64,000 bases of DNA from Candidatus Forterrea multitransposorum CG_2015-17_Forterrea_25_41 (GTDB taxonomy: Archaea; Iainarchaeota; Iainarchaeia; Iainarchaeales; CSSED10-239). The stretch lies in NCBI GenBank assembly GCA_009392915.1, contig CP045477.1, positions 64,001-128,000 of the forward strand, written 5' to 3'. This document shows positions 4,291 through 54,272 of this stretch, piece by piece. The notes under the pieces were generated by a model. That model was not told where the DNA came from and did no database searches. It worked only from the letters and a program-made list of their open reading frames with translations. Within the stretch, counting starts at the first letter, position 1; every line of letters begins with the position of its first letter. Both the position numbers and the translations under genes were made by a program.

Positions 4291-5055
4291 ATGGCAAAAC
4301 ATCTTAAAGAATGGAGACATAAAGAATTAGGTATTATTTCTGATCTTATATCTCAATATAAAACAATTGGTATTGGTGATTTGTATAATTTTCCATCAGC
4401 TTTACTTCATAAGCTAAGAAAAAATACTCCTAAAATACATTTCAAAGTAACTAACAGAAATATTTTAAAAATGGCTCTTGAAAAAATAGGTCAAAAAGAT
4501 TTAATTGAAAAGTTACCTGATCAACCAATATTGATTTTATCAAATGATAATGCTTTTGAAATATATTCTTCAATTAAGAAAAATAAATCAAAATCAAAAG
4601 CAAAAGTTGGTATGTTATCTCCAATTGATATTGTTGTTCCTGAAGGAGACACTGGTCTTGCACCTGGTCCTGCACTTTCAGATCTTAAAAAAGTTGGTAT
4701 TAAAGCTCAAGTTAAAGGAGCTACAATCCATGTTACAAAAGATACTGTTATTGCAAAAGAAGGAGACGTTATCAATGAAGATATTGTAAGTACTTTATCA
4801 AAGCTTGACATTAAACCTGTTGAATTAATTTTAGAAGTTGTCTTTATTAAAGAAGATGGCATAATTTATTCAAAAGATGTTTTAGATGTTGATGCTGAAA
4901 CAATATATAACAATTTCATAACTGCTGTAAGACAATCAATTAATTTAGGTGTTGAAATATCTTACGCAACAGAACTTACAATTGAGCCTATGATAATGAT
5001 GGCTGAATTGAAAGCAAAAGCCTTAGAAAAAGAGGTTGAAGAAAAAAGTAATTAA
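4291..5055 (+). CDS. rpl10: 50S ribosomal protein L10 / acidic protein P0
   Basis: Positioned between L1 and L12. 254 aa, with an acidic C-terminal EKEVEEK tail typical of P0. Confidence 0.9.
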   Translation: MAKHLKEWRHKELGIISDLISQYKTIGIGDLYNFPSALLHKLRKNTPKIHFKVTNRNILKMALEKIGQKDLIEKLPDQPILILSNDNAFEIYSSIKKNKSKSKAKVGMLSPIDIVVPEGDTGLAPGPALSDLKKVGIKAQVKGATIHVTKDTVIAKEGDVINEDIVSTLSKLDIKPVELILEVVFIKEDGIIYSKDVLDVDAETIYNNFITAVRQSINLGVEISYATELTIEPMIMMAELKAKALEKEVEEKSN

Positions 5056-47897: not shown

Positions 47898-49103
47898 TTG
47901 ATTAATATGTTTTCAAAAAAAATTATTTTAGTATCTGTTTTATTTTTACTTACATCTTTATTTTCGGGGTTGATTTTCTCTGAAAGATATATAGATAGTT
48001 CTTATGTTCAAGTTATTGCTCAAGAAGTAAGTCCTGAACCAGTAGAGCCTGGTCAAGATTTTTTACTAAAAGTTAGAGTTCATAATTTTGGAACAGTGGA
48101 TGCTAAAAATGTAAAAATTAATCTTGATTTAAATTATCCTTTTTATTTAAAAAATACAAGTGAGTCTTATATTGACTTTAATTCGATTTGTTCTAATTGT
48201 TCTGCAGAAAATACATATTATTTTACAGTTTCAAGTTCTGCAGTTTCAGGGATATATCCAATACATTTTAATATATCTGAAATAAATAATGAAACTGTTT
48301 CTTTTAAACCTCAAATAATAGATATTTCCATATTAGGTAAACCTGATTTAGTTTTAGAAACCATAAAAGTAGATCAAAATATTTCTGCCGGAGATATATT
48401 TAATATTAAATTTTTATTAAGGAATATAGGTACTGGGAATTCTAGAAATATAAAAATAATTCCTAATTCTGATGATTTTATGCTTATTGGGACAAATACT
48501 AAATGGTTTGAAGAATTAGGTCCCAATAAAGAAATTATTTTTGATTTAAATTTTATTTCAAACAAAGATTTAATTTCAAATAGTTATATTTTTCCTATAG
48601 ATCTTGAATTTTTAGGAGAAAAACAAAATTTTTATACCTCTTCATATAATATTGGAATTAATCTTTTAGGAAAAGCAGATTTATCTTTACAAAATTTAAA
48701 AATTACTCCTTTAAACCCTTCTTTAAAAGATTTAATTAATTTTGAAGGAATTATTGAAAATATAGGAAATGGAAAAGCAAATAATGTTTCTTTAGAATTA
48801 TTTGTTTCAAATGATGAGAATTATAAATATTATATTGGTCAATTAAATAAAGATGATGATGCTCCTTTTTATTTTAATGAAATTAAATTTAATTCTGTTG
48901 GAAATAATAAAGTAAATTTGATTGTAAATTATGATGATGATTACGGTAATTATAAAATAGAAATTCCTTTAAATCAAAATATAAATAAATCTAATAATTT
49001 ATCTTTATTTTTTATAGTTTTATTTTTATTTTTGGTTTTATTTTTTAGTTTGTATTTATTAAAAAATAATAAACACAATAAAAATAAAAAAATAAAGAAT
49101 TGA
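47898..49103 (+). CDS. CARDB-repeat (COG1361-like) cell-surface protein with C-terminal TM anchor
   Basis: Signal peptide and three CARDB-like repeats (e.g. VSPEPVEPGQDFLLKVRVHNFGTVDAKNVKINL). The C-terminus has a TM helix plus basic tail KNNKHNKNKKIKN. Confidence 0.7.
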   Translation: MINMFSKKIILVSVLFLLTSLFSGLIFSERYIDSSYVQVIAQEVSPEPVEPGQDFLLKVRVHNFGTVDAKNVKINLDLNYPFYLKNTSESYIDFNSICSNCSAENTYYFTVSSSAVSGIYPIHFNISEINNETVSFKPQIIDISILGKPDLVLETIKVDQNISAGDIFNIKFLLRNIGTGNSRNIKIIPNSDDFMLIGTNTKWFEELGPNKEIIFDLNFISNKDLISNSYIFPIDLEFLGEKQNFYTSSYNIGINLLGKADLSLQNLKITPLNPSLKDLINFEGIIENIGNGKANNVSLELFVSNDENYKYYIGQLNKDDDAPFYFNEIKFNSVGNNKVNLIVNYDDDYGNYKIEIPLNQNINKSNNLSLFFIVLFLFLVLFFSLYLLKNNKHNKNKKIKN

Positions 49104-49114
49104 TTTAGATTTAT

Positions 49115-50314
49115 ATGAATAAAAAAGATATTAAGCTAATGTTTTTTTTAGCTTATAAAAATATAATTAAAAGTAAATCTACTTTTATTGTAATTGTAGC
49201 TGTAATGGCTATGAGTTTTTTGTCAATAACTTTTTTTTCTGCAATTATTGATGGGTTAAGTTATGAATTTGAAGAGTCGATGATTGATGGTCAAACAGGG
49301 CATTTAATGATCGAACCATCTAATGAAGAAAGTTTTATATTTAATTCTGATAGATTAGAAAAAAATATTTCTAAAATTCCAGGAGTAATTGGTGTTTCTT
49401 CAAGATTAGAATCAAATATTTTAATTACTTATAAAAATGAAGAGCTAGGGGCACCTGTTTTCTTTATTGATCCTATTGATGAACAAAAAGTATCTAATTT
49501 TCATGAAAGTTTAATAGAAGGTAGTTTTCTTTCATATAAAGATACATCTGAAATTATTATTGGTTCTGATTTACTAGAACAGTATGCGCCTATAGATGAT
49601 ACTAAGAAAAGGTTTAATCTTAGAATAGGGGATAATATTATTTTAACTTTTAATAATGGTTATAAAAAAGAATATAAAATCAAAGGTATTTTTAAAACAG
49701 GTTCTAAGTTTAATGATGATAAAATTTTAATTAATAAAGAAGAATATTTTTCAATATTTAATAAAGAAGATATTTCTCATAAAATACTTGTTAAACTTCC
49801 TTCAAGAGGTCTTGAAAAAGAATATATTCAAAAGATAGAAGCTTTAGGAATAATTGAACAGATTAACCCTTGGGAAACTAAGATTGGTATGATTAAACAA
49901 TTTGTAGGAAGTCTTCAAATTACAAATCAGATAACTGGTTTTATAGGTTTATTAACTGCATTTGCAACAATTTACATAATTATTTTTATAAATGTAACTA
50001 ATAAAAGAAAGCAGATAGGTATATTAAAAGCTATAGGTATAAAAAAAAAAATTATTCTTGGATCATATATTATTCAATCTTTTATTTATGGTTTTGTAGG
50101 TGTTATTTTTGGAAATATTATTATGCAAATTTTGTTGGCTTTACTTGCAAGTTATCCATTATCTATGCCTATTGGGGATGTAGTTCCATTACTAACAATA
50201 GGTAAATTATTAACTACCTCTTTTATTTTAATTTTAGCCTCTATTGTTGCAGGTTTTTTCCCTTCTAGAAAAGCTTCTAATGATAATATCTTAGATGCTA
50301 TATTTGGAGGATAG
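49115..50314 (+). CDS. ABC transporter permease, FtsX/MacB-like
   Basis: N-terminal TM, a large extracytoplasmic domain and three C-terminal TM helices (FtsX topology). Precedes the ATPase gene. Confidence 0.75.
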   Translation: MNKKDIKLMFFLAYKNIIKSKSTFIVIVAVMAMSFLSITFFSAIIDGLSYEFEESMIDGQTGHLMIEPSNEESFIFNSDRLEKNISKIPGVIGVSSRLESNILITYKNEELGAPVFFIDPIDEQKVSNFHESLIEGSFLSYKDTSEIIIGSDLLEQYAPIDDTKKRFNLRIGDNIILTFNNGYKKEYKIKGIFKTGSKFNDDKILINKEEYFSIFNKEDISHKILVKLPSRGLEKEYIQKIEALGIIEQINPWETKIGMIKQFVGSLQITNQITGFIGLLTAFATIYIIIFINVTNKRKQIGILKAIGIKKKIILGSYIIQSFIYGFVGVIFGNIIMQILLALLASYPLSMPIGDVVPLLTIGKLLTTSFILILASIVAGFFPSRKASNDNILDAIFGG

Positions 50315-50317
50315 ATT

Positions 50318-51007
50318 ATGATTAAAAATATTATTGAAGTAAATAAACTTGAAAGAATATATTCTAATGGAATTGTTAAAACTTATGCCTTAAAAGACGT
50401 TTCTTTAAGTATAAAACCTGGTGAATTTGTTGCAATTATGGGGCCTAGTGGTTCTGGAAAAAGCACTTTACTTCATCAGTTAGGACTGTTAGATACTCCA
50501 ACTAATGGAAGTATTATTATTGATAATGAAGATGTATCGAAATTAACTGATAAACAAAAAACTACCTTTAGATTAGAAAAATTAGGTTATGTTTTTCAGT
50601 CATATAATTTATTACCAGAACTTAATGTTATTGAAAATGTTTTTTTAACCTCTATGGCTAAAGGTTTAGATCCTAAAGAATATAATTTGAGAGCAAAAGA
50701 TATTCTTGAAAAAGTAGGTTTAAAAGATAGATTGTATTATTATCCTTCTGAACTTTCTGGAGGTCAACAACAAAGAGTTTCTATTGCAAGAGCATTAGTT
50801 AATAAACCTAAAATTTTATTTGCAGATGAACCAACTGCAAATCTTGATTCTGATTCTTCTCAAGATATAATTGATTTATTTAAAAAATTAAATAAAGAAA
50901 TTAATCAAACTATTGTTATGGTAACACATGAATTAGAAGAAGGTAAAAAAGCAGATAGGATAATTTGGATTAAAGATGGTATTCTAGATAAGTCTGTAAA
51001 AGTTTAA
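50318..51007 (+). CDS. ABC transporter ATP-binding protein (MacB/LolD-type)
   Basis: Walker A GPSGSGKST, signature LSGGQQQRVSIARAL, Walker B ILFADEPTANLD. Confidence 0.9.
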   Translation: MIKNIIEVNKLERIYSNGIVKTYALKDVSLSIKPGEFVAIMGPSGSGKSTLLHQLGLLDTPTNGSIIIDNEDVSKLTDKQKTTFRLEKLGYVFQSYNLLPELNVIENVFLTSMAKGLDPKEYNLRAKDILEKVGLKDRLYYYPSELSGGQQQRVSIARALVNKPKILFADEPTANLDSDSSQDIIDLFKKLNKEINQTIVMVTHELEEGKKADRIIWIKDGILDKSVKV

Positions 51008-51108: not shown

Positions 51109-51618
51109 ATGAAGTCAAGATATATTTTATTAGTTTTAATATTGTTAATTATAATTATAGGTTTTATTATATTTTATAATAAATCAAATTCTAATTATTT
51201 TTTAAAAAATAATATTTTGGATAATAATTTATCTGTAGAAGAAATAAATGCTTTAAACGCAACTTTAAATGATGAATATAAAGCAGAAGCTATCTATCAA
51301 AAAGTTATTAATAAATTTGGAAATGTTCCACCTTTTGTAAATATTATGTCTGCTGAACAAAAACATAGTTCTTCTTTAATTATGTTATATAATAAATATA
51401 ATTTAACTATTCCAGAAAATGATTGGTATAATGAAGTTCCAGAATATGAAAGTGTTCAAGAAGCTTGTAAAGCAGGAGTTAATGCTGAAATTGAGAATGC
51501 TGCTTTATATGATGAAATGATGAAAAATATAACTCATGAAGATATAATTCAAGTTTTTAATTCCTTAAAAAATGCTTCTTTAGAAAAACATCTTCCTGCT
51601 TTTGAAAGATGTTCTTAA
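51109..51618 (+). CDS. DUF2202 ferritin-like domain protein, membrane-anchored
   Basis: N-terminal TM. EEINALNATLNDEYKAEAIYQKV...SAEQKHSSSLIMLYNKY...HEDIIQVFNSLKNASLEKHLPAF follows the DUF2202 pattern (EE..L.Y...EEY.A...Y....SEQ.H...L...Y). Confidence 0.6.
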   Translation: MKSRYILLVLILLIIIIGFIIFYNKSNSNYFLKNNILDNNLSVEEINALNATLNDEYKAEAIYQKVINKFGNVPPFVNIMSAEQKHSSSLIMLYNKYNLTIPENDWYNEVPEYESVQEACKAGVNAEIENAALYDEMMKNITHEDIIQVFNSLKNASLEKHLPAFERCS

Positions 51619-51799
51619 TTAGTTGTATTAAATTTCATTTTTCTTTGAGGTTCAATTTCCGCCAGAAGCTTTGCTTTTTAATTTATGTTATTTTAATTTA
51701 TTTTTTATTACTTTTAGAAATAAATCTATTTAAATAGTTTATTTTTATATATATGTATTATTCGCGAATAATGTTGGACAAAAATTTTGAGGTGGTTGT

Positions 51800-52474
51800 G
51801 TGTTTGATATCGCAGATTTTCCAAAATTAGAATCTCCCTTTATAAGAAAAACTATTAATGAAAAATATATAGTAACTTTTGAGATTAATCCTAAATATAA
51901 ATGGATTTTTAATAGAAACATTGTTTTAGCTTCAGAAAAGATAGATGGAACTAATGTTTCAATAATTATAAATAAAGGAAAAATAATTGATATATACAAT
52001 AGAAAAAATAAAATTGAAATATTAGCAAATAAAAAATATTTTAGATTTATAGATGGTATCAACTATGCCTTATATAAAGAATTATTTAGAACAAATAAAT
52101 CTATGCAAATATTTGGAGAATTAATTGGGCCAACAGTTAATGGAAATCCCTATAATGAAGTAAGAAACATATGGGTGCCTTTTTCTTACTTAAAAGAAAA
52201 ATGTGAATTTAAATTTTGGAATAAATTTTTAGAAGAAGAAATTGACGGTAAAGATTTAAGCGAAAAAGAAATATTTGAAAAAACATCAAATATTTTTAAA
52301 AATCTTTGGAGTCTTTATTATAGAAGAAAAACAGGCGAAAAGATATTTGCTGAAGGAATTGTATTTTATAATAAAGAAACTGGAGAGATGTGTAAACTAA
52401 GAAGAGATATGTTTGATTGGTATGAAGGAATTAGTCATGATTTTTTTAAAGCTAAAGCAAAAAAAGATCTATAA
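51800..52474 (+). CDS. ATP-dependent RNA/DNA ligase-like nucleotidyltransferase domain (Rnl2-like)
   Basis: Covalent nucleotidyltransferase motifs I EKIDGTN (cf. T4 Rnl2 KIHGTN), III FGELIG, IV AEGIVF and V CKLRR. At 224 aa it is the adenylyltransferase domain alone. Confidence 0.55.
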   Translation: MFDIADFPKLESPFIRKTINEKYIVTFEINPKYKWIFNRNIVLASEKIDGTNVSIIINKGKIIDIYNRKNKIEILANKKYFRFIDGINYALYKELFRTNKSMQIFGELIGPTVNGNPYNEVRNIWVPFSYLKEKCEFKFWNKFLEEEIDGKDLSEKEIFEKTSNIFKNLWSLYYRRKTGEKIFAEGIVFYNKETGEMCKLRRDMFDWYEGISHDFFKAKAKKDL

Positions 52475-52500
52475 AATGTAATTTTTATAAACATATTTTA

Positions 52501-52554
52501 TATTACTCACATCTGTGTATTACTCACAATCTTTTTAAATGTTTTGAGTAATAC
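52501..52554 (+). promoter_or_regulatory. three copies of TATTACTCA(CA) (two direct, one inverted) immediately upstream of the Fic gene start
   Basis: TATTACTCACA at 52501-52511 and 52518-52528. The inverted copy TGAGTAATAC is at 52545-52554, 7 bp before the ATG. Confidence 0.35.
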
Positions 52555-52560
52555 ATATTT

Positions 52561-53496
52561 ATGAGTTATTTATCTAAACTTAAAAGAAATAATAAAACAT
52601 ATTATTATCTTGTAGAAAATATTCCTATATCTAAAGGTAGGCGAAAACAAATTAGAAAATATATAGGGACAATTAAACCTACAGATCAAAAATTATCTTT
52701 AGAACTATTAAAGTTTGAAAAAGAAATTACTTCTAAAAAAAAACAAATGCAAGGATTTACCTATTTAACTAAAGAAGAAATAAAAGAAGTAGATGAAATT
52801 AATTCAAATTTTTGGAAAAAATATAATAAATTATCAAAAACTGAGAGAGAAGAATTTTGGAATAATTTTATTGGAATTTTTGTTTTTAACACAAACTCAA
52901 TAGAAGGTTCAACTTTAACATTAAAGGAAGTTGAACTACTATTATCTGAAAATATATCTCCAAATAGACCTTTAGAAGATGTTTTAGAAGCAAAATCTGC
53001 AAAAAAAGCAATTAATTTTATTTTAAATTATAAATCTGATTTGTCAATAGATTTAATTACTAAAATTCATAAAATATATTTTAAAGAAAGCTTTCCAGAT
53101 ATAGCTGGTAAATTTAAAAGATTAAATAATAGAATAAAAGGATCAAAATTTGATACTACTCCAAAAGAACTAGTTTTAACTGATTTAAAAATACTTATAG
53201 ATAATTATAAAAAATTTAAAAAAGAATTACATCCAATAGAATTATCTGCTTGGTTGCATTGGTCTTTTGTAAAAATTCATCCTTTTCAAGATGGAAATGG
53301 AAGAATTTCAAGATTACTTATGAATTTTATACTTTTTAAAAATAAATATGCTTTAATAGATATTAAAACAAAAGAAAAACAAACATATTTTAATTCTCTT
53401 GAAAAATGTAATTATTTGAATAATGGAAAACCATTAGCTCAAAGATTAGTTAGAAGATTTAAAAAACAGTATAAAAATATATTTTCAAATTTATAG
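52561..53496 (+). CDS. fic: Fic-family AMP-transferase (class II, N-terminal inhibitory helix)
   Basis: Canonical Fic motif HPFQDGNGRISR. N-terminal inhibitory motif TNSIEG fits (S/T)xxxE(G/N). Confidence 0.85.
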   Translation: MSYLSKLKRNNKTYYYLVENIPISKGRRKQIRKYIGTIKPTDQKLSLELLKFEKEITSKKKQMQGFTYLTKEEIKEVDEINSNFWKKYNKLSKTEREEFWNNFIGIFVFNTNSIEGSTLTLKEVELLLSENISPNRPLEDVLEAKSAKKAINFILNYKSDLSIDLITKIHKIYFKESFPDIAGKFKRLNNRIKGSKFDTTPKELVLTDLKILIDNYKKFKKELHPIELSAWLHWSFVKIHPFQDGNGRISRLLMNFILFKNKYALIDIKTKEKQTYFNSLEKCNYLNNGKPLAQRLVRRFKKQYKNIFSNL

Positions 53497-53525
53497 TTTT
53501 ATTAATTTTTTTTTAAAAGAAAAAA

Positions 53526-54272
53526 CTATTTATAACTTAAAAGCTTTTTAACATTTATATTCTCATTAAAAATCTCTTTTGACATTCCTTCAACATGTCC
53601 AGCACCAACAACAACCACAATGCTGTTAACATCTTCTTGTTGTAAGATCTGTCTAATACCATAAGCCATAAACTGATCTCTCTCATCAATCATTATTCTC
53701 TTTAAGGTCTTATGTCTTTTCATGAAAATTTCAAGAAGTTTATTTAGTTTGTCACCACTCTCTTCATCATCAACGCTTTTTAAAAGAACATTTACATCAA
53801 AGTCTTTACCAAGTTCTTTTCTTGTGTTAAATCCTCCAAAGAAAAGTCTAAATTTATCTCTAAAGGTTAAATTTTTTAAAAGTTTACTTAAAGTAAACTC
53901 TGCATCTCTATCCAGAAGTAAAAGCTTTGATTTATTCTCTTGAGCAGAAATAACTCCTTGCATCATTTCTTCTCCAGGAGTTGTATCAAATTTACTTGCA
54001 ATTTTTTTTTGAAATTTTTGTAAAACATAATATACTAAAAAAAGTCCAGGTTTTTTAGCTCTAAAAATATCTTTTAATCTAATCTCTCTTTTATTTTCTT
54101 TTGTCATCATGCTTTGAAATCTTTTTCTATCAAGCTCAATTCCAACAACATCAGGTTTTTCTAAATCAATAGTTTCTTTTACTTTTTCCTTGCTTTTTTT
54201 AGAAATATGTGCTGTTCCAACAATAATTATTTTTTTATTATTATAAAAAATAGTTTTAATCATAATTTTCAC
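53526..54272 (-). CDS. TraB/GumN-family protein
   Basis: Family signatures IIVGTAHISKKS near the N-terminus and VVVGAGHVEGM near the C-terminus. Confidence 0.7.
   Translation of the reverse strand: MKIMIKTIFYNNKKIIIVGTAHISKKSKEKVKETIDLEKPDVVGIELDRKRFQSMMTKENKREIRLKDIFRAKKPGLFLVYYVLQKFQKKIASKFDTTPGEEMMQGVISAQENKSKLLLLDRDAEFTLSKLLKNLTFRDKFRLFFGGFNTRKELGKDFDVNVLLKSVDDEESGDKLNKLLEIFMKRHKTLKRIMIDERDQFMAYGIRQILQQEDVNSIVVVVGAGHVEGMSKEIFNENINVKKLLSYK

What the first reader, a model, noticed from the sequence alone, without database searches (positions are those of the whole stretch)
51109..54272. Accessory cluster: DUF2202 ferritin-like protein, Rnl2-like ligase domain, class-II Fic AMP-transferase with triple upstream repeat, and convergent TraB/GumN
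Two nucleotidyl-transfer enzymes sit side by side. One is a 224-aa stand-alone adenylyltransferase domain of the covalent-lysine ligase superfamily (KIDGTN, FGELIG, EGIVF, KLRR). The other is a Fic protein with an intact HPFQDGNGRISR catalytic motif and an N-terminal TNSIEG auto-inhibitory motif. The Fic start codon is preceded within 60 bp by TATTACTCACA x2 plus an inverted TGAGTAATAC, an operator-like architecture. The Fic N-terminal 40 aa (KTYYYLVENIPISKGRRKQIRKYIG) is basic and could be a DNA-binding arm. This would allow autoregulation. A possible function is a defence or stress module where a Fic AMPylator and an RNA ligase/repair enzyme act on a shared nucleic-acid or protein target. 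I am not aware that this combination has been described.
Basis: partly seen in the sequence, partly recalled or inferred. Interest (0 to 1): 0.7.

Follow-up and report, generated by a model that had tools for sequence, protein, structure and literature searches.

The report
Self-regulated archaeal Fic gene; unrelated neighbours
The four genes are real but are not a functional unit: the notable feature is that the Fic enzyme gene of this tiny archaeon carries a conserved set of repeated DNA sites around its own promoter, which the enzyme's unusual N-terminal domain probably binds to hold down its own production.

Summary
The window comes from a Candidatus Iainarchaeum (Diapherotrites, DPANN archaeon). 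All four domain calls hold: DUF2202, a 224-aa PF09414 RNA-ligase-type nucleotidyltransferase with an invariant motif-I lysine, a class-II Fic, and TraB.

The proposed Fic–ligase module is not supported. Only one of about 20 related Fic loci holds the ligase. Apart from that same locus, none of about 54 ligase loci holds Fic. In that locus the gene order differs and a ParE-like toxin pair lies between them.

The repeat upstream of Fic is real and conserved. GTATTACTCA occurs twice, 17 bp apart, followed by a TATA-like box, then an inverted TGAGTAATAC, then ATG. Nine related genomes with different upstream genes keep this arrangement.

More distant Fic clades keep the same layout with different motifs. 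Two Fic paralogs in one genome each carry the motif of their own clade. A hydrogenase-subunit gene that shares only the N-terminal domain (three β-strands and a helix) has the same promoter layout.

Best reading: a self-contained, negatively autoregulated Fic gene. It works like bacterial CccR, but through an undescribed N-terminal domain. DNA binding by that domain is inferred, not shown.

The parts
51109..51618 (+). DUF2202 ferritin-like protein with an N-terminal hydrophobic anchor or signal. An unrelated neighbour.
   Evidence: PF09968 at 28.1 bits, cut-off 22. Not found near Fic or the ligase in any other locus.
51800..52474 (+). Stand-alone 224-aa covalent nucleotidyltransferase of the PF09414 RNA-ligase superfamily, with a GTG start preceded by GAGGTGG. 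It is an independent gene, not part of the Fic unit.
   Evidence: PF09414 at 39 bits. Motifs I, III, IV and V are invariant in 33 homologs, with K47 at nt 51938-51940. A family profile hits the T4 Rnl2 nucleotidyltransferase domain at E 8.6e-7. Scores are far below the cut-offs of the Rnl2, Rnl3 and DRB0094 equivalogs. 809 relatives, mostly DPANN/Asgard archaea, and 51 viral contigs.
52500..52509 (+). Operator site 1 (ATATTACTCA), about -61 to -52 from the ATG.
   Evidence: Conserved in position, 17 bp upstream of site 2, in the window, L007, L011, L012, L014, L096, L097 and L099; the corresponding L098 copy is degenerate and its spacing was not measured.
52517..52526 (+). Operator site 2 (GTATTACTCA). 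It abuts or overlaps the expected BRE position just upstream of the TATA-like box.
   Evidence: The block is invariant in a 5-locus alignment while the spacers vary.
52532..52539 (+). TATA-like box (TTTTTAAA). Its centre lies about 25 nt before the ATG, which implies a leaderless mRNA.
   Evidence: A conserved T/A octamer sits between the repeat copies in every Fic locus examined. There is no Shine-Dalgarno-like sequence before the ATG. The TATA and TSS assignments are inferred, not mapped.
52545..52554 (-). Operator site 3 (TGAGTAATAC on the + strand, an inverted copy of site 2). It lies between the TATA-like box and the start codon, where a bound protein would block polymerase recruitment.
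52562..52569 (-). Weak fourth copy (TGAGTTAT) overlapping codons 1-3, 17 bp after site 3. Its significance is doubtful.
   Evidence: I1: 36-nt arms, 75% complementary. Codon 2 varies in the family.
52561..53496 (+). Class-II Fic protein, 311 aa. Residues 1-64 form the N-domain, three β-strands and a helix (nt 52561-52752). The inhibitory motif T111-NSI-E115-G116 is at nt 52891-52908. The catalytic motif H240-PFQDGNGRISR is at nt 53278-53313.
53526..54272 (-). TraB/PrgY/GumN family protein, convergent with Fic. An unrelated neighbour.
   Evidence: PF01963 at 82.7 bits; TIGR00261 at 175.9 against a cut-off of 178.35. Absent from all other Fic and ligase loci.

Best explanation
The region holds four independent genes of a Candidatus Iainarchaeum (DPANN archaeon). 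The one organised feature is a self-contained Fic transcription unit, 52500-53496. The promoter is a TATA-like box (52532-52539) about 25 nt before the ATG, so the mRNA is probably leaderless. Copies of a 10-bp site, GTATTACTCA, bracket this box. Two direct copies lie upstream, 17 bp apart, and the proximal one reaches the BRE position. One inverted copy lies between the TATA-like box and the start.

The Fic protein is a class-II, glutamate-inhibited AMP-transferase of the FICD / BT_2513 structural type. It has about 70 extra N-terminal residues that form a basic three-stranded β-sheet plus a helix.

Proposed mechanism (inferred): Fic binds these sites through the N-domains and occludes TFB, TBP or RNA polymerase. 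This represses its own transcription and keeps a potentially toxic enzyme low and buffered. It would be the archaeal counterpart of the bacterial Fic autorepressor CccR, using a different DNA-binding domain.

The RNA-ligase-type gene is a separate accessory or virus-related nucleotidyltransferase with intact catalytic motifs. It merely lies upstream. DUF2202 and TraB are also unrelated.

Shown here: the genes, the motifs, the conservation and co-variation of the repeat, and the lack of conserved Fic-ligase linkage. Inferred: the TATA and TSS assignment, DNA binding by the N-domain, and the sign of regulation.
For: (1) Phylogenetic footprint. In L007, L011, L012, L014, L096, L097, L098 and L099 the upstream genes are unrelated, yet the blocks site1-N7-site2-TATA-site3-ATG are conserved while the spacers vary.

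(2) Specificity. All 13 exact GTATTACTCA matches in 137 kb of window plus related loci lie within 100 bp upstream of a Fic start; all but the two in L008, which has a longer leader, lie within 65 bp.

(3) Control. An exact repeat of at least 8 nt occurs in the -75..-1 region of 19 of 24 Fic genes, against 13 of 219 other ORFs in the same DNA. The positions are constant, about -20 and about -45 to -60.

(4) Co-variation. Other N-domain clades keep the layout with other motifs: TGTAGTCACC, TGTAGCCA, GGTGACCAC/GTGGGCACC, TGTCTACCTTA. One genome (L096) has two Fic paralogs, each with the motif of its own clade.

(5) Domain link. A HydC/NuoE-like gene (P0260; L152/L153) shares only the N-domain (E 7.9e-7). 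It has GTGGTAATTAAAC three times upstream, two copies flanking TTTTTATAA and the last ending 7 nt before the ATG.

(6) Conserved face. The N-domain is strongly conserved, with alternating invariant residues on β3 (R28, Q30, R32, Y34). It is confidently modelled.

(7) Precedent. CccR, a Fic dimer, autorepresses through two 10-bp inverted repeats 26 bp apart that span its core promoter (PMC9755527).

(8) No linkage to the ligase.
Confidence: 0.55

Rival explanations
1. One reading: Fic and the RNA-ligase-type enzyme form a two-enzyme defence, stress or repair module acting on a shared target.
For: They are adjacent on the same strand in the window. Both lie within 1.3 kb in one other Iainarchaeum genome, L007. 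The Fic core matches PADLOC candidate-defence Fic models PDC-S04 and SoFic. The ligase family is common on viral contigs, so both are conflict-type genes.
Against: No ligase within 4-5 kb of Fic in L011, L012, L014 or L096-L099 (53-85% identity), or in about 13 more distant N-domain Fic loci. No Fic near the ligase in L001, L003, L005 or in 51 viral loci. One genome (PWLL) carries them on different contigs. In L007 the order is reversed and a ParE-like pair on the other strand separates them. Fic has its own promoter and operator. The ligase hits no PADLOC model.
Confidence: 0.06
2. The repeats are a genuine operator, but a separately encoded transcription factor binds them, not Fic. The N-domain would then do something else, such as protein or RNA binding.
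For: No fold or sequence match ties the N-domain to a known DNA-binding family. The motif and the protein would co-vary with phylogeny in either case.
Against: Two Fic paralogs in one genome carry different motifs, each matching its own N-domain clade. A non-Fic gene sharing only the N-domain has the same promoter layout. No conserved regulator gene lies beside Fic in any locus.
Confidence: 0.25
3. The inverted repeat acts at the RNA level. A hairpin spanning the start codon would control translation or terminate read-through from the upstream gene.
For: RNA 52495-52578 folds at -19.5 kcal/mol with z = -5.5, pairing site 2 with site 3.
Against: Distant clades and the HydC-like gene use direct repeats, which cannot pair. 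A TATA-like box sits in the loop about 25 nt before the ATG, so the upstream arm is probably not in the Fic transcript. The extra direct copy at a fixed 17-bp spacing has no role in a hairpin. The upstream genes differ between loci.
Confidence: 0.07
4. The repeats are recombination or mobility sites of a small Fic cassette. The N-domain would act like an integrase arm-binding domain.
For: Orthologs at 81-85% identity sit in different genomic contexts, and homology starts exactly at site 1. tRNA genes or T-arm-like sequences abut the operator in L097, L098 and L014. Distant clades have motif copies at both ends of the gene. L096 has a 47-nt repeat flanking both Fic paralogs.
Against: No recombinase is consistently nearby. 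The sites bracket a TATA-like box at fixed promoter distances, which fits regulation. The window clade has no copy downstream of Fic. Synteny is generally poor among these genomes.
Confidence: 0.07

Closest known systems
CccR of Yersinia pseudotuberculosis (Fic toxin that is also an autorepressor; PMC9755527)
   Same: A Fic enzyme that carries its own DNA-binding domain. Its operator is two 10-bp inverted repeats far apart (AGATAATCAT-N26-ATGATAATCT) spanning the core promoter elements of its own gene. Here GTATTACTCA-N18-TGAGTAATAC spans the TATA-like box.
   Different: CccR binds DNA with a C-terminal HTH domain, is bacterial (-35/-10 promoter) and is secreted by a T6SS. Here the candidate domain is N-terminal and all-β plus a helix, the promoter is archaeal, there is an extra direct copy 17 bp upstream, and binding is untested.
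Class-II Fic proteins: human FICD/HYPE, Bacteroides BT_2513 (3cuc), Clostridium difficile Fic (4x2c)
   Different: In the sequence-level matches none of them aligns to residues 1-70 (the aligned stretch of the query starts at about residue 84-107). FICD instead has a TM segment and TPR repeats. No promoter-operator relationship is known for them.
Fic-HTH fusions noted by Kinch et al. 2009 (PMC2686095) and Phd/Doc autoregulation
   Same: The idea that a DNA-binding module fused to, or paired with, a Fido enzyme regulates its own expression.
   Different: Those modules are HTH or winged-helix domains, or a separate antitoxin. There is no antitoxin gene here, and the domain is not an HTH.
T4 Rnl2 / PF09414 RNA-ligase nucleotidyltransferase domain
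   Same: The ligase-like ORF has motifs I, III, IV and V, and its family profile aligns to the Rnl2 nucleotidyltransferase domain (E 8.6e-7).
   Different: Its scores are about 10-fold below the cut-offs of the Rnl2, Rnl3 and DRB0094 equivalogs. It forms its own family, about 200-250 aa long, in DPANN and Asgard archaea and on viral contigs.
SoFic / PDC-S04 single-gene anti-phage Fic systems (PADLOC; PMC12249575)
   Same: The Fic core matches their HMMs (E 4.8e-34 and 1.1e-21).
   Different: The match covers only residues 83-310. SoFic has a C-terminal domain and a downstream antitoxin, AS1. A defence role was not tested here, and the family looks like a conserved single-copy gene of small DPANN genomes.

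Membership tests
Fic/Fido (PF02661) | Pfam score above the gathering cut-off, and the catalytic motif HxFx(D/E)GNGRxxR | tested here: met
   70.6 bits against a cut-off of 24. H240-PFQDGNGRISR-R251 is invariant in 35 sequences.
Class-II Fic (intramolecular N-terminal inhibitory helix) | Motif (S/T)xxxE(G/N) on a helix N-terminal to the Fic core, and no separate antitoxin | tested here: met
   T111-N-S-I-E115-G116 is invariant and lies at the end of helix 93-115 in the model. There is no small ORF in the 86-bp gap upstream or the 29-bp gap downstream.
Class-II Fic | AMP-transferase / de-AMPylase activity relieved by mutating the inhibitory Glu | not testable with these tools
   Needs an enzyme assay with E115G.
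CccR-type autorepressing Fic | C-terminal HTH DNA-binding domain | tested here: not met
   The protein ends with the Fic core helices. No HTH in Pfam or in the model. The extra domain is N-terminal, three β-strands plus a helix.
CccR-type autorepressing Fic | Widely spaced repeats spanning its own core promoter, bound by the protein | tested here: inconclusive
   The architecture is present and conserved. Binding is not testable here.
Type II toxin-antitoxin (FicT/FicA, Phd/Doc) | Adjacent small antitoxin gene in the same operon | tested here: not met
   None in the window or in 20 related loci.
RNA_ligase superfamily (PF09414) | Pfam score above cut-off, and covalent nucleotidyltransferase motifs I (KxDGxN), III, IV and V | tested here: met
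   39 bits against 27. K47, G50, T51, N52, F105-G-E107, E185-G, K199 and R201 are invariant in 33 sequences.
Rnl2 (TIGR02307) | Equivalog score of at least 197, and a C-terminal domain following the nucleotidyltransferase domain | tested here: not met
   19.7 bits. 224 aa with no C-terminal domain. The alignment to T4 Rnl2 covers only motifs I-III.
Rnl3 / Pab1020 (TIGR01209) and DRB0094-type (TIGR02306) | Score above cut-off (136.9 and 151.15) | tested here: not met
   19.3 and 14.9 bits. PDB 2vug at E 0.038 only.
DUF2202 (PF09968) | Pfam score above cut-off | tested here: met
   28.1 bits against 22.
TraB/PrgY/GumN (PF01963) | Pfam score above cut-off | tested here: met
   82.7 bits against 26.8. 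TIGR00261 at 175.9 is just under its cut-off of 178.35.
AP2 / integrase arm-type three-stranded-sheet DNA-binding domains | Significant fold or sequence similarity to a solved member | tested here: inconclusive

The most novel reading that the evidence does not exclude
The roughly 65-residue N-terminal module (three β-strands and a helix) is a previously unrecognised family of archaeal sequence-specific DNA-binding domains. It turns enzymes such as Fic, a HydC/NuoE-like hydrogenase subunit and perhaps acetate kinase into one-component, self-repressing units. Each lineage would have its own roughly 10-bp site duplicated around the TATA box. In Fic, promoter occupancy could be coupled to the enzyme's (auto)AMPylation state. 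The promoter-plus-gene unit may also move between genomic sites as a cassette.
Probability: 0.2. Interest if true: 0.75.

Novelty: new variant of a known kind. Interest (0 to 1): 0.5.

Why it matters
Fic enzymes are potentially toxic, and how cells keep them in check is an open theme. The known solutions are an inhibitory glutamate, antitoxins, and one characterised bacterial autorepressor, CccR. This archaeal family is retained in roughly 1-Mb DPANN genomes at 53-96% identity. It appears to use a second, independent solution: an N-terminal β-sheet module plus lineage-specific sites that sandwich the TATA box.

If the module binds DNA, it is a new archaeal DNA-binding domain with a ready-made set of natural domain/site pairs for working out its recognition rules. 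It would also be a compact model for repression at archaeal leaderless promoters.

The finding also removes a tempting but unsupported 'Fic + RNA ligase' system from consideration.

Tried and rejected
1. Fic-ligase linkage. I looked at 3 close ligase contexts, 9 Fic contexts of the window clade, about 13 distant N-domain Fic contexts and 51 viral ligase contexts. Only L007 has both genes, rearranged.

2. Island signature. GC and skew are not distinct from other low-GC parts of the window.

3. tRNA-fragment or att-site idea for window 51646-51668. No match to the window's two tRNAs or to anything else.

5. Other N-domain proteins in the window or in the fetched loci. None beyond those already known.

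6. Validating the TATA position from the window's own genes. No positional peak in this AT-rich sequence, and many genes have Shine-Dalgarno-like leaders.

7. The bacterial sigma-70 and terminator scan is irrelevant for an archaeon; no terminator-like sites were found.

8. Rfam. Only two tRNAs in the window.

9. The metagenome scan with the Fic alignment used only core-motif patterns, so it returned mostly distant Fic proteins. This was useful for clade comparison but poor for close orthologs.

10. The context of P0313, an N-domain protein with an unknown C-terminus, was uninformative because the gene lies inside an operon.
Full report
**Source and observation.** The window is archaeal. A contig of 'Candidatus ainarchaeum sp. 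STF1_257' (JAQVRT010000006.1; Iainarchaeum, Diapherotrites/DPANN) is about 100% identical over this region. GC content is 19-30% throughout, and the region of interest (21-23%) is not compositionally distinct.

The four ORFs are as described, and all four Pfam assignments pass their gathering cut-offs:
- DUF2202, 51109-51618.
- RNA_ligase PF09414, 51800-52474.
- Fic PF02661, 52561-53496.
- TraB, 53526-54272, minus strand.

TATTACTCACA lies at 52501-52511 and at 52518-52528. The inverted TGAGTAATAC lies at 52545-52554, 7 nt before the ATG. The exact 11-mer occurs nowhere else in the 64 kb window.

**The ligase-like gene.** The protein has every covalent-nucleotidyltransferase motif, and all are invariant in 33 homologs:
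- K47 in EK(I/L)DGTN.
- N67-R68.
- F105-G-E107.
- W125.
- E185-G-I-V-F.
- K199-L-R201-R-D.

The protein is not a member of the named Rnl families. It scores 15-20 bits against equivalogs whose cut-offs are 137-197 bits. A family profile aligns only to motifs I-III of T4 Rnl2 (E 8.6e-7).

It belongs to a large family (809 hits) of stand-alone proteins of 200-250 aa. Sources name members from Aenigmarchaeota, Diapherotrites, Nanoarchaeota and Helarchaeota. There are 51 relatives on IMG/VR viral contigs, about 40 of them full-length. It matches a PHROG 'RNA ligase' family and no PADLOC defence model.

**Is Fic-ligase a module? No.** Ligase homologs of 72-78% identity sit in three unrelated contexts with no Fic in the sequence available around them, 0.02-6 kb per side (L001, L003, L005). 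Fic orthologs of 82-85% identity sit in three further contexts with no ligase within 5 kb (L011, L012/13, L014/15). The same holds for orthologs of 53-63% identity (L096-L099), for about 13 more distant N-domain Fic loci, and for 51 viral ligase loci. In assembly PWLL the two genes lie on different contigs.

The only other co-location is L007, with Fic at 81% and the ligase at 68% identity. There the order is reversed, and a ParE-like toxin pair on the opposite strand separates the genes.

In the window Fic has its own promoter in the 86-bp gap after the ligase. DUF2202 and TraB recur next to neither gene. The cluster is best seen as accessory genes lying together in a variable region.

**The repeat is a conserved cis-element.** The upstream genes differ between orthologous loci: ligase, methyltransferase, DUF2666/DUF6498, a tRNA with thermosome, tRNA-Cys, and others. 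Homology nevertheless begins precisely at the first repeat.

The conserved layout is GTATTACTCA - 7 variable nt - GTATTACTCA - about 5 nt - TTT(T/A)TAAA - about 5 nt - TGAGTAATAC - 6-8 nt - ATG. L098, L099 and L016 carry the one-base-shorter variant TGTTACTCA. L008 has one direct and one inverted copy, with a longer, Shine-Dalgarno-bearing leader.

All 13 exact 10-mer matches in 137 kb of window plus related loci are in Fic promoters. As a control I looked for exact repeats of at least 8 nt, with at least 3 G/C, in the -75..-1 region. These occur at 19 of 24 Fic genes against 13 of 219 other ORFs of the same DNA, and the positions are stereotyped.

**Promoter geometry (inferred).** The conserved T/A octamer (52532-52539) is centred about 25 nt before the ATG, and no Shine-Dalgarno sequence precedes the ATG. 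From established knowledge of archaeal promoters, where the TATA box sits about 26 nt upstream of the TSS, this implies a leaderless mRNA.

Site 3 would then lie between the TATA box and the TSS, and site 2 at the BRE position. These are the places where archaeal repressors typically block TFB/TBP or polymerase recruitment. I could not validate the TATA position statistically in this AT-rich window.

**Who binds the sites?** The Fic family is about 310 aa long and very conserved, 53-96% identical over its full length. That includes the first 40 residues, where Y3, Y14, Y16, E19, R28, Q30, R32, Y34, G36 and P40 are invariant.

Three observations tie the repeats to this N-domain rather than to the Fic core or to a host factor:
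- **Layout kept, word changed.** More distant N-domain clades keep the layout with different motifs. TGTAGTCACC occurs twice as a direct repeat in L019, L021 (near-identical to L019), L024, L028 and L030 (L022 has a one-base variant). TGTAGCCA occurs twice in L018, L027 and L096b. GGTGACCAC/GTGGGCACC is inverted in L017, L020 and L023. TGTCTACCTTA is inverted in L009.
- **Two paralogs, two motifs.** One genome (L096) carries two Fic paralogs of different clades, each with its own clade's motif.
- **A non-Fic gene with the same promoter.** A profile of the N-domain, searched against 1.84 billion proteins, finds mostly Fic proteins. It also finds fusions to a NuoE/HydC-type 2Fe-2S protein, to acetate kinase and to unknown C-termini. 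The HydC-like gene (P0260) is seen in many samples. It has GTGGTAATTAAAC three times upstream, two copies flanking TTTTTATAA and the last ending 7 nt before the ATG.

On β3 the clades differ at positions 28 and 30 (R/Q versus V/K), while I31, R32, Y34 and G36 are kept. That pattern fits specificity residues on a conserved scaffold. This step is inference.

The inverted repeat would fold as RNA (-19.5 kcal/mol, z -5.5). The direct-repeat clades argue against a hairpin function.

**Comparison with what is known.** Kinch et al. (PMC2686095) noted Fic-HTH fusions and suggested autoregulation. CccR of Yersinia is a proven case. It is a Fic dimer whose C-terminal HTH domains bind AGATAATCAT-N26-ATGATAATCT across its own -35/-10 region and repress it (PMC9755527).

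The window's GTATTACTCA-N18-TGAGTAATAC across a TATA-like box is the same design. It differs in three ways: a different, N-terminal, non-HTH domain, an archaeal promoter, and an additional direct site. Full-text searches found no description of this archaeal family, its N-domain or its operator. The searched library is incomplete.

**Verdict.** The finding is a new variant of a known kind, an autoregulated Fic. It carries a plausible but unproven new DNA-binding module.

Noticed in passing
L019 5938-5968; also L021, L024, L027, L028, L030 (just after the Fic stop): In the TGTAGTCACC clade the same 9-bp motif also occurs at the 3' end of Fic. GGTGACTAC overlaps the stop codon, followed by 13 nt and then GTAGTCACC, a perfect inverted repeat. 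L017, L018, L020 and L023 have one copy after the stop. It could be a second operator for looping, the promoter of the next gene, a terminator hairpin or a cassette boundary. The window clade has no such copy.
   Followed up: partly
L152/L153 1878-1994 (upstream of the gene at 2001-2606): A HydC/NuoE-like 2Fe-2S subunit of a HydABC-type hydrogenase operon carries the same N-terminal domain as the Fic family. It has GTGGTAATTAAAC three times upstream, flanking a TATA-like box. The protein is on record in 53 blocks of the collection.
   Followed up: partly
P0281, P0288, P0301, P0312, P0313, P0255: The N-domain is also fused to an acetate-kinase fragment and to several C-terminal regions with no Pfam match. 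P0313 lies inside a tightly packed array of small same-strand genes on a 78-kb contig (L151), which looks virus- or plasmid-like.
   Followed up: partly
L096 3896-3942, 6024-6070, 6968-7014, 8078-8124; a shorter related GC-rich stretch (…GGGAGGCGGGA…) lies on both sides of Fic in L099: A 47-nt GC-rich repeat (TCCGGCRGGA.TTGCACC.G.AGA.C.GTGTTGGGAGGCGGGA) occurs four times within 4.2 kb and brackets both Fic paralogs of that genome; the shorter related stretch in a different metagenome (L099) was seen by eye in the flanks, not by the repeat finder. Its nature is unknown; it could be a MITE, an att site or a structured RNA.
   Followed up: partly
L097 3867-3938; L014 4720-4796 and about 4915-4937; L016 1102-1175; L019/L021 6137-6225; L098 just upstream of 4001: tRNA genes or T-arm-like fragments lie within 0-250 bp of several Fic genes. 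In L097, tRNA-Cys ends 2-3 nt before operator site 1. This may be compact-genome coincidence or an insertion preference.
   Followed up: partly
L023 203-2602 and 3637-4563; L019, L021: A CARDB-FtsX-ABC (MacB-like) operon 59-70% identical to window 47898-51007 also lies upstream of a Fic gene in L023, but that Fic belongs to a different clade (36% identity, different operator). L019 and L021, two near-identical contigs, also have ABC/FtsX genes upstream of Fic. This may be a hot spot or chance.
   Followed up: partly
L100-L150 (IMG/VR contigs): The small stand-alone ligase family has 51 relatives on contigs classified as viral, about 40 of them full-length (about 25-46% identity). L100, for example, is a dense array of small same-strand ORFs. 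This suggests frequent virus carriage and a possible RNA-repair or counter-defence role.
   Followed up: partly
L007 3564-4219 (minus strand): A ParE-like toxin (125 aa; PF05016, 23.7 bits) with a 92-aa upstream partner is inserted between Fic and the ligase in the one other genome where both genes are near each other.
   Followed up: yes
L006 3550-4055 versus window 51109-51618: In the near-identical public assembly the DUF2202 gene gives two overlapping tblastn segments (residues 1-67 and 59-169). This indicates a frameshift or indel difference between the assemblies.
   Followed up: no
window 51646-51668: A relatively GC-rich stretch, GAGGTTCAATTTCCGCCAGAAGC, lies in the 181-bp gap between DUF2202 and the ligase. 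It resembles a tRNA T-arm but matches neither tRNA in the window and does not form a proper T-stem.
   Followed up: yes
L011 5001-5210: The public gene call for the Fic ortholog P0123 is 381 aa. That is a 70-residue N-terminal over-extension that reads through the operator; the conserved start is at L011 5211.
   Followed up: yes
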